Shown: piece after piece, positions 62,302-63,657 of the stretch
Numbering within the stretch: position 1 is the stretch's first letter
Layout: each line of letters opens with the position of its first letter
From: Candidatus Saccharimonadota bacterium
GTDB taxonomy: Bacteria > Patescibacteriota > Saccharimonadia > Saccharimonadales > UBA4665
NCBI GenBank assembly: GCA_029288365.1
Contig: JARIHI010000007.1
Location: 38,464-102,463 of the forward strand
Length of the DNA stretch: 64,000 nucleotides
Direction: 5' to 3'
Program-made: the position numbers and the translations under genes
The notes under the pieces: generated by a model
The model's database searches: none
What the model was told of the DNA's origin: nothing
What the model saw: only the letters and a program-made list of their open reading frames with translations

Positions 62302-63657
62302 TTAAGCTGCTTCAAGTTCGCGAAGTACCTTAGGACTTCCATCCGCGTGGTAACTTGTTGCATTACGAGCCATCCCTGCCCACATACCGGTTTTTGGTCG
62401 CTCTTCTATCACTACTGCTTCACATGCTTCAAGCAATGGGCATGCTGCACATATTTCTTTTATACGAACTTCTCTTGATTTCAAAACTTTCATAGGATTA
62501 TCTGCACATGGAACCCCTTGCCAGGGATTTTCCATGCCCATAACATCGTTTAAAATACTCTGAACTGCTGGATGTTTTAGGCCTGCCTTTACGCGAGTAA
62601 CCCGGCGTGCATCCGTTGCACTTAAAGGCTGCCCGTCACTCGCCATCCTAAAAGCCCAAATCTCAGCTGGCGCAAAAGCCCTGGTTAATGCATCGTATAC
62701 AGGCCCTAACTCTTCTTTCCTCTCTGTATCATCAACGAATATTTCCTCAAATGCTTTTTCTGCTCGAGGGTCGGCTACAACATGATGAAGTGCCATTCTC
62801 TCTGAGCTTCTCATCTTTGCATCAAGCGATTTTGTGTTACGGGTAATATAGGCTGCATCGTAATCTTCTCGCTGCCCAGGGGTTAGATTCAAGTCTTCTG
62901 CCACCCTTTCTTCTGACTCCCCTTTGTCTCTTTTTGTTTCGTAACTCCTAAACTTTCCTTTAACGTAAAAATTAATTGGTACCCCGATTTCACGGGCAGC
63001 TTGCTGCGCATAACGCTGCATCGATTGTCGAATCCACCAAACCGCATAGTTGGAGAACTTGAGTCCTCTTTCTGGGTCAAACTTCTTGACTGCCCGTTCT
63101 ACACCCTTCACACCAACATTGATAAAATCCATAACCCCTATTCTAGGGTACGTATCGTGATAGGCCCGCGCATATTTGATTGTAAGTAACTGATTACAAT
63201 CCCGCATAACCTCAAAAGCCCTTTGAGCTCCTGCGACAAGCTGTTGGTCAACTAAGCGTGTCTCATCTCTTTCATACTCATCAAGCTCAAGTCTTGCTAC
63301 TGCTGCTGTGCCTTTATGGATTAAGCGTCCAAGAATTATCTCTTCTTCAGGTAAGAGTAAGCCTTTCTGAGCAGCTTCTCTAATAAATGTTCTCACCCCT
63401 TCTGTGTCTGCCCCGTCAACCCATCTGGGCATTTTATTATAGGTTGGCTTATACACGGGCCGTATCCGAGTTAAGACAATTTCTTCCTCACTACTCAGCA
63501 AATAAAAAGAACGGGTACTGGCATGAGTCGGTTCGGCCTCCTCTAAAGCTTCTTCAATAGCCTCACCTTCAATACGTAACTCTTCAGGAAAGTCCGCCAA
63601 CGACTCTATTTCTTCAACTTCTGGCCTCGTATCAAGGCATGCTACCAACTCAGACAT
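62302..63657 (-). CDS. Sigma-70 family factor (regions 1.1/1.2/2 and an eroded region 4) fused to a C-terminal WhiB-like 4-Cys domain
   Basis: [37 protein letters not shown] is sigma region 2. The N-terminus is acidic. The C-terminus is WQGVPC-x18[10 protein letters not shown]...GMWAGM (about 62305-62523). Start set at MSELVAC (63657). Confidence 0.8.
   Translation of the reverse strand: [451 protein letters not shown]

What the first reader, a model, noticed from the sequence alone, without database searches (positions are those of the whole stretch)
62302..63657. Primary-type sigma-70 factor covalently fused to a WhiB-like (Wbl) four-cysteine domain
Seen in the sequence: one uninterrupted minus-strand ORF of 451 aa from the ATG at 63657. 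It contains, in order:
- an acidic region-1.1-like stretch ([30 protein letters not shown]);
- a region-1.2-like stretch ([23 protein letters not shown]);
- a clear region 2 ([40 protein letters not shown]);
- a short, apparently truncated region-4-like segment ([32 protein letters not shown]);
- WQGVPC-x18-C-x2-C-x5-C followed by GMWAGM.

The final element is the Cys spacing plus G-x-W-x-G turn that defines WhiB-like Fe-S proteins.

Established knowledge: Wbl proteins are regarded as confined to Actinomycetota and their phages. WhiB1 and WhiB7 act by docking, through the cluster-proximal face, onto region 4 of the primary sigma factor SigA.

Inference: here the two interaction partners form a single polypeptide, a Rosetta-stone fusion, in a genome that does not look actinobacterial. 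The WhiB module may replace or regulate the eroded -35-recognition region, making promoter recognition directly redox- or NO-sensitive. Its codon composition looks native, so any acquisition would be old. I am not aware of a characterised sigma-Wbl fusion.
Basis: partly seen in the sequence, partly recalled or inferred. Interest (0 to 1): 0.85.

Follow-up and report, generated by a model that had tools for sequence, protein, structure and literature searches.

The report
Sigma factor fused to WhiB-like domain
A Saccharibacteria (CPR) chromosome encodes a second, fast-evolving sigma-70 factor whose C-terminus is fused to a WhiB-like iron-sulfur domain, joining in one protein two partners that in Actinobacteria bind non-covalently, and placing a supposedly Actinobacteria-only family in another phylum.

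Summary
The 451-aa ORF at 62302-63657(-) passes Pfam thresholds for Sigma70_r2 and Whib, and region 1.2 is borderline. It has C384-x18-C403-x2-C406-x5-C412 and a GMWAG turn.

It is not a false join. At least 21 clusters (50% identity) from independent assemblies share the architecture, mostly just upstream of polA in Saccharimonadales genomes.

It is not the housekeeping sigma. Related genomes keep a canonical dnaG-linked rpoD that is 86-99% conserved, while the fusion proteins are only 27-45% identical.

All members keep the His-Pro pair that in Mycobacterium tuberculosis SigA is the docking site for every Wbl. They also keep Trp379 and Trp426, two of the four Wbl "aromatic patch" positions. 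The canonical Saccharibacterial RpoD lacks His-Pro.

Some orthologues have an intact region 4. The window's clade has lost about 12 residues of the -35 helix-turn-helix.

AlphaFold2 models residues 318-451 as one rigid body (pLDDT 95.7, pTM 0.87), and its Foldseek hits are Wbl structures.

Best reading: an alternative sigma with a built-in, probably [4Fe-4S]-dependent, Wbl module docked on a degenerate region 4. Cluster binding and redox sensing are untested.

I found no description in the literature searched. The nearest precedent is the uncharacterised WblP (a Wbl fused to an ECF sigma) on Streptomyces plasmid SCP1.

The parts
62302..63657 (-). Complete sigma-Wbl coding sequence (451 aa plus stop)
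   Evidence: The product is identical to the NCBI protein P0001.
63403..63657 (-). N-terminal acidic, poorly conserved region (residues 1-85), possibly region 1.1-like
   Evidence: No Pfam hit. pLDDT is mostly below 60. Only 2 invariant columns among the 4 closest relatives.
63310..63396 (-). Region 1.2 (residues 88-116)
   Evidence: Pfam PF00140 scores 21.6 bits against a cut-off of 22. The same family is hit in 17 of 21 family members.
62992..63180 (-). Region 2 (Pfam span, residues 160-222). The sigma-2 domain as modelled spans roughly residues 86-230 and includes [11 protein letters not shown]
   Evidence: PF04542, E 1.7e-9, hit in 21 of 21 members. pLDDT 88-97.
62830..62967 (-). Region 3-like three-helix segment (residues 231-276)
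   Evidence: NCBIfam RpoD/SigA alignments run through it. AlphaFold2 helices at 235-244, 249-255 and 260-274. No Pfam r3 hit here; r3 is hit in 4 of 21 members.
62707..62829 (-). Low-confidence linker (residues 277-317), at the position of region 3.2
   Evidence: pLDDT 41-58. Only 3 invariant columns in the close clade.
62536..62706 (-). Degenerate region 4 (residues 318-374): 4.1-like helix, one remaining helix of the helix-turn-helix, the His-Pro pair, and the C-terminal sigma tail helix
   Evidence: Family alignments. hhalign against family members with an intact region 4 gives E 7e-4 with a 12-column gap. Those members against canonical region 4 give E 7e-16. The direct comparison with canonical region 4 is not significant. 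pLDDT above 90.
62569..62574 (-). His362-Pro363, equivalent to H516-P517 of M. tuberculosis SigA (the Wbl docking site)
   Evidence: Invariant in the full-length alignment of 21 members; in re-alignments of the C-terminal part His is 90% or more and Pro invariant, one member reading Gln-Pro. Family member P0177 aligns its KLRHPS with the SigA region 4 chain 7kuf_B. The role of H516-P517 is from PMC13013590.
62350..62535 (-). WhiB-like domain (residues 375-436): W379 (aromatic patch position AP1), C384, C403, C406, C412, and the G424-M-W426-A-G turn (AP4)
   Evidence: PF02467, 30.1 bits. The family profile hits PDB chains WhiB 8dy7_H (E 2.7e-17), WhiB4, and WhiB1 6ono. The top 15 Foldseek hits are all Wbl chains. 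The four Cys and W379 are invariant.
62305..62349 (-). C-terminal tail (residues 437-451); the adjoining S435-Y436 at the end of the Wbl part are invariant in the close clade
   Evidence: In other clades this tail is strongly basic.
63670..63698 (-). Promoter-like site TTGTAA-17-TATAAT with a TG extension, ending 13 nt upstream of the ATG
   Evidence: 10 of 12 consensus matches. This is a consensus match only.
62279..62301 (-). Perfect 8-bp hairpin (GTAGGTAG-N7-CTACCTAC) directly after the stop codon, with no T tract, in the 61-nt gap before polA
   Evidence: Read. The terminator scan did not call it.

Best explanation
The gene encodes an alternative sigma-70-family factor of a Saccharimonadales bacterium. 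It looks like group 1/2 by sequence and is a paralogue of rpoD. Its C-terminus continues directly into a WhiB-like domain.

Shown:
- The architecture is real and conserved.
- It sits at a conserved locus upstream of polA.
- A separate canonical rpoD exists in related genomes.
- The fusion proteins keep the His-Pro Wbl-docking pair, the four cluster cysteines and two of the Wbl aromatic-patch tryptophans.
- The window's clade has lost about 12 residues of the region 4.2 helix-turn-helix.
- Residues 318-451 are predicted as a single rigid module with a Wbl fold.

Inferred:
- The Wbl domain carries a [4Fe-4S] cluster and docks in cis on the His-Pro face of its own region 4, as free Wbl proteins do in trans on actinobacterial SigA.
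- The docked module takes over part of upstream-promoter recognition or contact from the broken helix-turn-helix. In other clades this may go through a basic C-terminal tail.
- Loss or modification of the cluster (O2, NO or iron starvation) destabilises the module and so switches the activity or specificity of this sigma. That would make it a one-polypeptide redox-responsive sigma factor.
For: Domain calls:
- Pfam Sigma70_r2 and Whib are both above their cut-offs.
- Across the 21 family members, Sigma70_r2 is hit in 21, Whib in 19 and r4 in 3.
- The profile of the C-terminal part hits solved Wbl structures at E 2.7e-17 to 5e-5.

Family and invariant residues:
- The HMMER scan of 1.84 billion representatives gives full-length relatives (P0094 at 45% identity down to about 23%).
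- L101, E106, N155, G185, A189, F193, F201, I209, H362, P363, W379, C384, C403, C406 and C412 are invariant; G424 and W426 are conserved in 90% or more.

Synteny:
- The order sigma-Wbl, polA, HAD hydrolase, fpg recurs in L001, L065, L066, L067 and L069, as in the window.

Separate canonical rpoD:
- A canonical rpoD lies next to dnaG in L004, L006, L065 and L067, and at the contig start in L001 and L066.
- That RpoD is 99% identical between two genomes whose sigma-Wbl proteins are 33% identical.
- The canonical RpoD ends KLR[KR]HKD, with no His-Pro.

Docking logic:
- All Wbls studied bind sigma-A region 4 at H516-P517 through aromatic-patch residues AP1-4 (PMC13013590).
- The family's KLxHP aligns with the SigA KLRHPS.

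Structure:
- AlphaFold2 of residues 318-451 gives pLDDT 95.7 and pTM 0.87.
- Foldseek ranks 1-15 are WhiB6, WhiB3, WhiB, WhiB7 and WhiB1, with rmsd 1.1-4.3 A.
- Region 4 plus Wbl is the most conserved part in the close clade: about 30% invariant columns against 22% in sigma-2.
Against: - No coordinates or PAE were available, so the docking geometry (His362 against the cluster pocket) could not be measured. A pTM of 0.87 from a 21-sequence alignment is only indirect evidence.
- Cluster binding, redox sensitivity, core RNA polymerase binding and promoter specificity are all untested.
- Aromatic-patch positions AP2 and AP3 are Val391-Leu392 here instead of Phe-Phe. A Leu at AP2 is tolerated in WhiB4.
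- Region 2.2 is diverged: [14 protein letters not shown] against the canonical DLIQEGNxGL.
- The region 4 remnant is not significantly similar to canonical region 4 in a direct profile comparison. Its homology is supported only transitively.
- Foldseek E-values for the small module are weak (0.075 or higher).
- The window ends 343 nt upstream of the gene, so a canonical rpoD in this particular genome is inferred from relatives and not seen.
Confidence: 0.6

Rival explanations
1. The Wbl domain is a constitutive structural or DNA- or activator-contact prosthesis. It permanently replaces the lost helix-turn-helix of region 4 and gives this alternative sigma a different upstream-promoter specificity. 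The Cys4 site (Fe-S or even Zn) would then serve only as a fold staple, and nothing is sensed.
For: - The helix-turn-helix deletion occurs only together with the fused Wbl domain, and the two parts are predicted as one rigid body.
- Many members carry basic C-terminal tails like the DNA-contacting tails of free Wbls.
- Saccharibacterial lifestyles may offer little redox variation (own knowledge; weak).
Against: - Orthologues with an intact region 4 also carry the Wbl domain (P0124, P0177), so replacing the helix-turn-helix cannot be the original role.
- Characterised Wbl clusters are O2/NO-reactive (PMC6282962 and PMC5741622 abstracts).
Confidence: 0.2
2. It is a degenerating or neo-functionalised rpoD duplicate that no longer initiates transcription. 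It might, for example, act as a core-polymerase-binding decoy, or as a scaffold that presents the Wbl domain to another partner.
For: - It evolves extremely fast compared with rpoD and polA: 33-45% identity against 99% and 85%.
- Region 2.2 is diverged and region 4 is broken.
- Pfam r3 and r4 are undetectable in most members.
Against: - The ORF is intact at a conserved locus across deep divergence.
- The -10 recognition and melting motif FSxYAxWWIRQ, and 14 invariant columns including sigma-2 residues, are retained.
- The gene has a promoter-like site of its own.
Confidence: 0.12
3. It is the housekeeping primary sigma factor of this organism, as the finding's title could be read.
For: The best NCBIfam and structural matches are RpoD/SigA-type sigmas.
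Against: - Six related genomes carry a separate, highly conserved canonical rpoD with regions 1.2 to 4: next to dnaG in L004, L006, L065 and L067, and at the contig start in L001 and L066. These include the closest relative with the same local synteny.
- The fusion protein is far too variable for a housekeeping sigma.
Confidence: 0.03
4. It is an assembly or annotation artefact: a false join or missed stop between a sigma gene and a whiB gene.
For: None, apart from the unusual architecture. Reads could not be mapped.
Against: - The same collinear architecture appears in at least 21 clusters at 50% identity, from NCBI, JGI, ENA and Logan assemblies.
- The junction region is the best-conserved part of the protein.
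Confidence: 0.01

Closest known systems
Actinobacterial Wbl proteins bound to region 4 of the primary sigma factor (WhiB1:SigA-r4 6ONO; WhiB7-RNAP 7KIF; Streptomyces WhiB/WhiA-RNAP 8DY7; WhiB3, WhiB6)
   Same: - Same Wbl fold and the same Cys-x(n)-C-x2-C-x5-C plus G-x-W-x-G signature.
- The same partner surface is retained: the His-Pro at the end of region 4.2.
- The Wbl aromatic-patch Trp residues AP1 and AP4 are conserved.
   Different: - Here the two partners are one polypeptide.
- The organism belongs to the Saccharibacteria, not the Actinobacteria.
- The sigma is a paralogue, not the housekeeping factor.
- In the window's clade the helix-turn-helix of region 4 is partly deleted and AP2/AP3 are Val-Leu.
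[quoted passage not shown] 2004, as cited in PMC6282962)
   Same: A natural covalent Wbl-sigma fusion that has not been characterised.
   Different: - WblP is a group 4 (ECF) sigma, plasmid-borne and actinobacterial.
- The present family is group 1/2-like, with region 1.2, region 2 and region 3-like parts, and is chromosomal and syntenic in Saccharimonadales.
- No plasmid record covers 80% or more of the query. WblP's own sequence was not compared.
ECF sigma factors with regulatory C-terminal extensions (for example ECF56 SigG1 with a SnoaL_2 domain, PMC7730460; ECF41/42 and CorE-type Cys-rich extensions, from own knowledge)
   Same: A sensory or regulatory domain is appended in cis to the C-terminus of a sigma factor, next to region 4.
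   Different: - A different sigma group and unrelated extension domains.
- None of these extensions is a Wbl or Fe-S domain that also exists as a free sigma-binding protein.
Group 2 (non-essential primary-like) sigma factors such as RpoS, cyanobacterial SigB-E and actinobacterial SigB/HrdA-D
   Same: - Sequence affinity: the best NCBIfam alignments are to the cyanobacterial RpoD family, RpoS and SigB.
- It co-exists with a canonical RpoD.
   Different: - All scores are far below the family cut-offs (94 bits against 384.5).
- Group 2 sigmas have an intact region 4 and no appended domain.

Membership tests
WhiB-like (Wbl) family, Pfam PF02467 | Significant match to the family HMM, above the curated cut-off | tested here: met
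   30.1 bits against a cut-off of 23.6, E 7.2e-7. 19 of 21 family members hit. The family profile against PDB WhiB gives E 2.7e-17.
WhiB-like (Wbl) family, Pfam PF02467 | Four conserved Cys in the pattern C-x(14-22)-C-x2-C-x5-C | tested here: met
   C384-x18-C403-x2-C406-x5-C412, invariant in all 21 members.
WhiB-like (Wbl) family, Pfam PF02467 | Gly-rich beta-turn G[V/I]WGG after the last Cys | tested here: met
   G424-M-W426-A-G. G424 and W426 are conserved in 90% or more of members. The fourth position is Ala, a variant form.
WhiB-like (Wbl) family, Pfam PF02467 | Wbl helical fold around the cluster pocket | tested here: met
   AlphaFold2 module pLDDT 95.7. Foldseek ranks 1-15 are all Wbl chains, TM-score normalised to the target 0.35-0.67, though E-values are only 0.075-0.65.
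WhiB-like (Wbl) family, Pfam PF02467 | Aromatic patch AP1-4 for binding sigma region 4 (W3, F17, F18 and W60 of WhiB1) | tested here: inconclusive
   AP1 is W379 (invariant) and AP4 is W426 (90% or more). AP2/AP3 are V391-L392 in this clade, and FF or Y in other clades (definition from PMC13013590).
WhiB-like (Wbl) family, Pfam PF02467 | Binds a [4Fe-4S] cluster | not testable with these tools
   Needs anaerobic purification with UV-vis, EPR or native mass spectrometry.
WhiB-like (Wbl) family, Pfam PF02467 | Small free-standing protein (about 75-250 aa) restricted to Actinobacteria and actinophages | tested here: not met
   It is the C-terminal domain of a 451-aa protein in a Saccharimonadales chromosome. 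The literature states the restriction.
Sigma-70 family, group 1/2 (RpoD/SigA-like) | Region 2 (core binding, -10 recognition and melting) | tested here: met
   PF04542, E 1.7e-9. [11 protein letters not shown] is present. Foldseek best hits are SigA chains.
Sigma-70 family, group 1/2 (RpoD/SigA-like) | Region 1.2 | tested here: inconclusive
   21.6 bits against a cut-off of 22. Hit in 17 of 21 relatives.
Sigma-70 family, group 1/2 (RpoD/SigA-like) | Region 3 | tested here: inconclusive
   No Pfam r3 hit. NCBIfam alignments and three modelled helices cover the region. r3 is hit in 4 of 21 members.
Sigma-70 family, group 1/2 (RpoD/SigA-like) | Intact region 4.2 helix-turn-helix for the -35 element | tested here: not met
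   No PF04545 hit. There is a 12-column gap relative to family members with an intact region 4. The direct comparison with canonical region 4 is not significant.
Sigma-70 family, group 1/2 (RpoD/SigA-like) | Score above an NCBIfam RpoD, RpoS or SigB family cut-off | tested here: not met
   The best score is 94 bits against a cut-off of 384.5.
Housekeeping primary sigma (group 1) | It is the dnaG-linked, highly conserved, single essential rpoD of the genome | tested here: not met
   In relatives a different gene fills this role. The window's own genome beyond position 64000 was not visible.

The most novel reading that the evidence does not exclude
Saccharibacteria, which live as epibionts on Actinobacteria, captured a WhiB2/WhiB-class Wbl gene from their hosts or from host phages. 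They welded it onto the C-terminus of a duplicated rpoD, exactly at the His-Pro docking site. In some clades the Wbl module then replaced the -35 helix-turn-helix.

The result would be a self-contained [4Fe-4S] (O2/NO/iron)-sensing sigma factor that controls part of the epibiont programme. It would be the first functional Wbl system outside Actinobacteria and their phages, and a natural Rosetta-stone proof of the Wbl:sigma-4 mechanism.
Probability: 0.3. Interest if true: 0.85.

Novelty: new variant of a known kind. Interest (0 to 1): 0.72.

Why it matters
1. Reviews and a 2026 structural survey state that Wbl proteins occur only in Actinobacteria and actinophages, and that survey discarded sequences outside 75-250 aa as likely incomplete or multi-domain. 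A conserved chromosomal Wbl lineage in Saccharibacteria contradicts the restriction. It also undermines the use of whiB as a marker for assigning phages to actinobacterial hosts.

2. The fusion is independent evolutionary evidence that docking on the His-Pro face of sigma region 4 is the core function of Wbl domains. The docking pair survives only on the sigma that carries the Wbl domain, not on the housekeeping RpoD.

3. The series from an intact region 4 to a helix-turn-helix-deleted region 4, at one orthologous locus, is a natural experiment in how an accessory factor can take over promoter recognition.

4. It provides a candidate single-polypeptide redox-responsive sigma in organisms with tiny genomes and few regulators. 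This may bear on host association.

5. A covalent, well-predicted sigma-4/Wbl module could be a convenient object for biophysical work on Wbl clusters.

Tried and rejected
Searches that found little or nothing:
- The word-indexed protein search found only the protein itself plus ordinary sigma factors. The family appeared only in the exhaustive HMMER scan.
- The exact-product contig look-up for P0001 found nothing.
- The cluster look-ups gave almost no taxonomic names.
- The first GTDB genome scan, with close-clade patterns, found nothing. The whole-family alignment was too diverse to seed a scan.
- The metagenome scan returned one weak match covering sigma-2 only.
- The profile search with the C-terminal part through the word index returned only free Wbls, not the fusions, so it could not be used to count family members.
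- No plasmid record covers 80% or more of the protein, and no phage record matches the C-terminal module.
- Rfam and tRNA scans of the window were empty.
- There is no second sigma or Wbl ORF in the window.
- No WhiA homologue was found among the window ORFs of 150 aa or more that were scanned.
- Literature searches (WhiB with Saccharibacteria, Patescibacteria, CPR or TM7; Wbl with 'non-actinobacterial'; WblP) found no description of this architecture.

Comparisons that were weak:
- The direct hhalign of the truncated region 4 against canonical region 4 was not significant (E 0.12). Homology rests on intermediates and on full-length collinearity.
- Foldseek with the whole model only recovers sigma chains, with poor global rmsd because the domains are flexibly arranged.

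Ideas rejected:
- A zinc-binding anti-sigma (ZAS) H-x3-C-x2-C motif. There is no His four residues before C403.
- The weak NUDIX_4 hit (15.5 bits against a cut-off of 35).
- The 511-aa GTG start.
- A false join.
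Full report
**1. The observation**

The minus strand carries an uninterrupted ORF that ends at the TAA at 62302-62304.
- The ATG at 63657 gives 451 aa. An upstream in-frame GTG at 63837 would give 511 aa.
- The 451-aa form is the protein deposited at NCBI (P0001, 100% identical, on a contig of 144,734 bases).
- The N-termini of the closest relatives align on M1.
- A TG-extended TTGTAA-17-TATAAT site ends 13 nt upstream of the ATG.

Pfam results:
- Sigma70_r2, residues 160-222: E 1.7e-9, 37.7 bits, cut-off 24.
- Whib PF02467, residues 394-431: E 7.2e-7, 30.1 bits, cut-off 23.6.
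- Sigma70_r1_2, residues 88-116: 21.6 bits, cut-off 22.
- No region 3 or region 4 hit.

NCBIfam RpoD/SigA, RpoS and SigB models align from about residue 85 to residues 300-346, all far below their family cut-offs.

Only the 'region 1.1-like' label lacks independent support.

**2. The organism and its surroundings**

- The adjacent PolA (59550-62240) is 73-85% identical to many proteins named Candidatus Saccharimonadales, Saccharibacteria or Patescibacteria.
- The window carries a type IV pilus cluster and ordinary housekeeping genes: fpg, holA, truB, gdh, pnp, RNase J, ftsK, ssb, efp and others.
- It has no tRNA or Rfam hits and no second sigma or Wbl ORF.
- GC is 0.455 for the gene against 0.447 for the window.
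- This is a native chromosomal gene of a CPR bacterium, not an actinobacterium.

**3. It belongs to a family**

The word-indexed search saw only the protein itself. The exhaustive HMMER scan of 1.84 billion representatives returned proteins that align from region 1.2 to the end of the Wbl domain:
- P0094: 45% identity, E 1e-99.
- P0095: 43%.
- P0096: 36%.
- P0097: 32%.
- At least 16 more, down to about 23%.

In the 21-sequence alignment:
- The invariant columns are L101, E106, N155, G185, A189, F193, F201, I209 and then H362, P363, W379, C384, C403, C406, C412.
- G424 and W426 are conserved in 90% or more of members.

Scanned one by one, the members hit Sigma70_r2 in 21 of 21, Whib in 19, r1_2 in 17, r3 in 4 and r4 in 3.

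A profile of the C-terminal part hits solved Wbl structures:
- Streptomyces WhiB 8dy7_H, E 2.7e-17.
- WhiB4, E 1.8e-12.
- WhiB1 6ono, E 1.6e-11.
- WhiB3 and WhiB7 as well.

The members come from NCBI, JGI, ENA and Logan assemblies. One is HKR82282.1, annotated only as 'sigma-70 family RNA polymerase sigma factor [Candidatus Saccharimonadales bacterium]'. Independent recurrence excludes a false join.

**4. The locus is orthologous, and the gene is a paralogue of rpoD**

- The window order is sigma-Wbl, polA, nucleoside deoxyribosyltransferase-like gene, HAD hydrolase, fpg, Kelch-repeat giant protein, holA, truB.
- This order recurs around P0094 (L001), P0096 (L066), P0097 (L065), P0117 (L067) and P0124 (L069).
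- It recurs more loosely around P0142 (L004) and P0098 (L006).
- In L004, L006, L065 and L067 a canonical rpoD (363-380 aa, Pfam regions 1.2 to 4) follows dnaG a few kb upstream. L001 and L066 begin with the same gene.
- The canonical RpoD is 99% identical between L001 and L065 and 86% identical to L004. The sigma-Wbl proteins of the same genomes are 33% and 27% identical.
- PolA is about 85% identical between the window and these relatives.
- The fusion is therefore a fast-evolving alternative sigma, not the housekeeping factor.
- The window stops 343 nt upstream of the gene, so the canonical rpoD of this genome is inferred and not seen.

**5. The junction is the known docking site**

According to PMC13013590, all Wbls examined bind sigma-A region 4 at one site centred on H516-P517. 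They do so through an aromatic patch, AP1 to AP4, which in WhiB1 is W3, F17, F18 and W60. The H516A change abolishes binding.
- Family member P0177 aligns its '...VTREWIRKIQIISMIKLRHPSAYKKL' with M. tuberculosis SigA region 4 (chain 7kuf_B, '...[26 protein letters not shown]', E 1.2e-11). The family's His-Pro therefore corresponds to H516-P517.
- After His-Pro comes a short helix equivalent to the last 11 residues of SigA ([13 protein letters not shown]). The Wbl N-terminus then starts within a few residues, at W379, which is AP1.
- AP4 is W426.
- AP2/AP3 are FF or Y in most clades, and V391-L392 in the window's clade.
- The canonical Saccharibacterial RpoD ends KLR[KR]HKD[AS]KKL in five genomes and has no His-Pro.
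- The docking pair is retained only on the sigma that carries the Wbl domain, and on one recent tandem duplicate that lacks the domain, the 490-aa sigma of L004.

**6. Region 4 is eroded in the window's clade**

- Orthologues such as P0124, P0177 and P0146 have a complete region 4. Pfam r4 is hit, and hhalign of this group against canonical region 4 gives E 7e-16.
- The window protein and about a dozen relatives align to that group with a 12-column gap inside the region 4.2 helix-turn-helix (E 7e-4).
- What remains is a 4.1-like helix, one helix that ends at His-Pro, and the tail helix.
- The direct comparison with canonical region 4 is not significant (E 0.12). The homology is therefore transitive, backed by synteny and by single full-length BLAST alignments (P0001 against P0124: residues 84-429 to 81-445, E 1e-26).
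- Within the four closest sequences, region 4 plus Wbl has about 30% invariant columns. Sigma-2 has 22%, region 3 and the linker have under 10%, and the N-terminus has 2%.

**7. Structure prediction**

- Full length: pLDDT 79.9, pTM 0.48. Sigma-2 and the C-terminal 130 residues are confident, and residues 277-316 are disordered. The best PDB matches are mycobacterial, Streptomyces and Thermus SigA chains.
- Residues 318-451 alone: pLDDT 95.7 and pTM 0.87 with only 21 sequences. This indicates one rigid body rather than two tethered domains.
- The top 15 Foldseek hits for this module are exclusively Wbl chains (WhiB6, WhiB3, WhiB, WhiB7, WhiB1), with rmsd 1.1-4.3 A over 33-75 columns. E-values are weak (0.075 or higher) because the domain is small.
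- I could not obtain coordinates, so the His-Pro/cluster-pocket contact is inferred and not measured.

**8. Origin**

- Wbl domains of the members with an intact region 4 are closest to free Wbls. P0180 and P0226 are 55-61% identical to proteins annotated as WhiB-family regulators, and carry the FFPxxGGSxxxAKxxC signature seen in Streptomyces WhiB.
- The window clade and a 'CGGCAVR' clade are each other's best matches.
- This fits a fusion of a WhiB/WhiB2-like gene to a duplicated rpoD, followed by rapid divergence. The direction of transfer is not established.
- GC of all fusion loci is 0.43-0.58, unlike a high-GC Streptomyces locus retrieved in the same scan (L010, 0.70).
- A GTDB scan also found free Wbl ORFs on contigs of MAGs labelled Saccharibacteria (L018, L031, L035, L040). 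L031 is a chromosomal context with LigA, a Mur ligase and FemAB.

**9. Mechanism**

Shown:
- A conserved alternative sigma with an appended Wbl fold.
- Retained docking determinants.
- A broken helix-turn-helix in this clade.
- A compact predicted module.

Inferred:
- The Wbl domain binds a [4Fe-4S] cluster and docks in cis on its own region 4.
- The module contributes to, or replaces, upstream promoter contact. Many clades have basic C-terminal tails; the window's tail is only weakly basic.
- Cluster damage by O2, NO or iron limitation would undock or unfold the module and switch the sigma.

Rivals:
- A purely structural or specificity role without sensing.
- A non-initiating decoy.
- The housekeeping sigma (contradicted by the data).
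- An artefact (excluded).

**10. Novelty**

- Reviews and a 2026 survey state that Wbls occur only in Actinobacteria and actinophages. The survey discarded sequences outside 75-250 aa as likely incomplete or multi-domain.
- Full-text searches combining WhiB or Wbl with Saccharibacteria, Patescibacteria, CPR or TM7 found nothing relevant.
- The domain combination is visible in precomputed Pfam annotations, so it is undescribed rather than invisible.
- I rate it a new variant of a known kind: the Wbl:sigma-4 partnership made covalent, in a new phylum, with progressive loss of the helix-turn-helix. Interest 0.72.

Noticed in passing
L001:2-1123, L004:7291-8433, L065:414-1523, L066:2-1141, L067:6046-7137: The canonical RpoD of five Saccharimonadales genomes ends KLR[KR]HKD[AS]KKL. 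It lacks the His-Pro pair (KLRHPSRS) seen in the primary sigmas matched. It is 86-99% identical between genomes whose sigma-Wbl paralogues are only 27-33% identical.
   Followed up: yes
L004:8491-9963: A 490-aa sigma paralogue lies directly upstream of the sigma-Wbl P0142 and is 45% identical to it over 487 residues. It ends '...AKLAHPSFGLFEDMLEG', so it has the His-Pro pair but no Wbl domain. It is either a recent duplicate that lost the domain or a possible partner in trans.
   Followed up: partly
L018:4923-5426, L031:7854-8291, L035:1740-2009, L040:1506-1946: Free-standing Wbl ORFs occur on contigs of MAGs labelled Saccharibacteria (GC 0.32-0.47). L031 is a cellular chromosomal context with LigA, a Mur ligase, FemAB and a GH10 glycosidase. 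Free Wbls may therefore also exist outside Actinobacteria, unless these contigs are mis-binned.
   Followed up: partly
L009:2734-4134: A sigma-Wbl fusion with a full-length (undeleted) region 4 sits on a 4.2-kb contig binned as 'uncultured Pseudoxanthomonas sp.'. This is probably a mis-binned Saccharibacterial contig.
   Followed up: no
window 483-13485 (-), plus 13534-17339 (-): A type IV pilus gene cluster: PilX_N, N_methyl pilins, prepilin peptidase A24, a PilC-like T2SSF protein, two T2SSE ATPases, PilO and PilM. It is followed by 936-aa and 332-aa ORFs with no Pfam match.
   Followed up: partly
window 50939-55459 (-): A 1506-aa Kelch-repeat protein, with a syntenic 1529-aa counterpart in L065. 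Its listed GTG start overlaps the fpg ORF by about 90 nt, so the true start is probably further downstream.
   Followed up: no
window 63670-63698 (-): A TG-extended promoter-like site (TTGTAA-17-TATAAT) ends 13 nt before the ATG of the sigma-Wbl gene, and no Shine-Dalgarno sequence is evident. The mRNA may be nearly leaderless. A divergent membrane-protein ORF starts at about 63766 on the plus strand and runs off the window.
   Followed up: no
window 62279-62301 (-): A perfect 8-bp hairpin (GTAGGTAG-N7-CTACCTAC) lies immediately after the sigma-Wbl stop codon, without a T tract, in the 61-nt gap before polA. Its function is unknown.
   Followed up: no
L006:8231-9367: The rpoD of this 804-kb Saccharibacteria contig translates to a scrambled Arg/Pro-rich middle flanked by normal RpoD ends. 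This is most likely frameshift errors in the assembly.
   Followed up: no
window 31937-32623 (+): A Crp/Fnr-family regulator (cNMP_binding plus HTH_Crp_2), one of the few transcription factors in the window.
   Followed up: no
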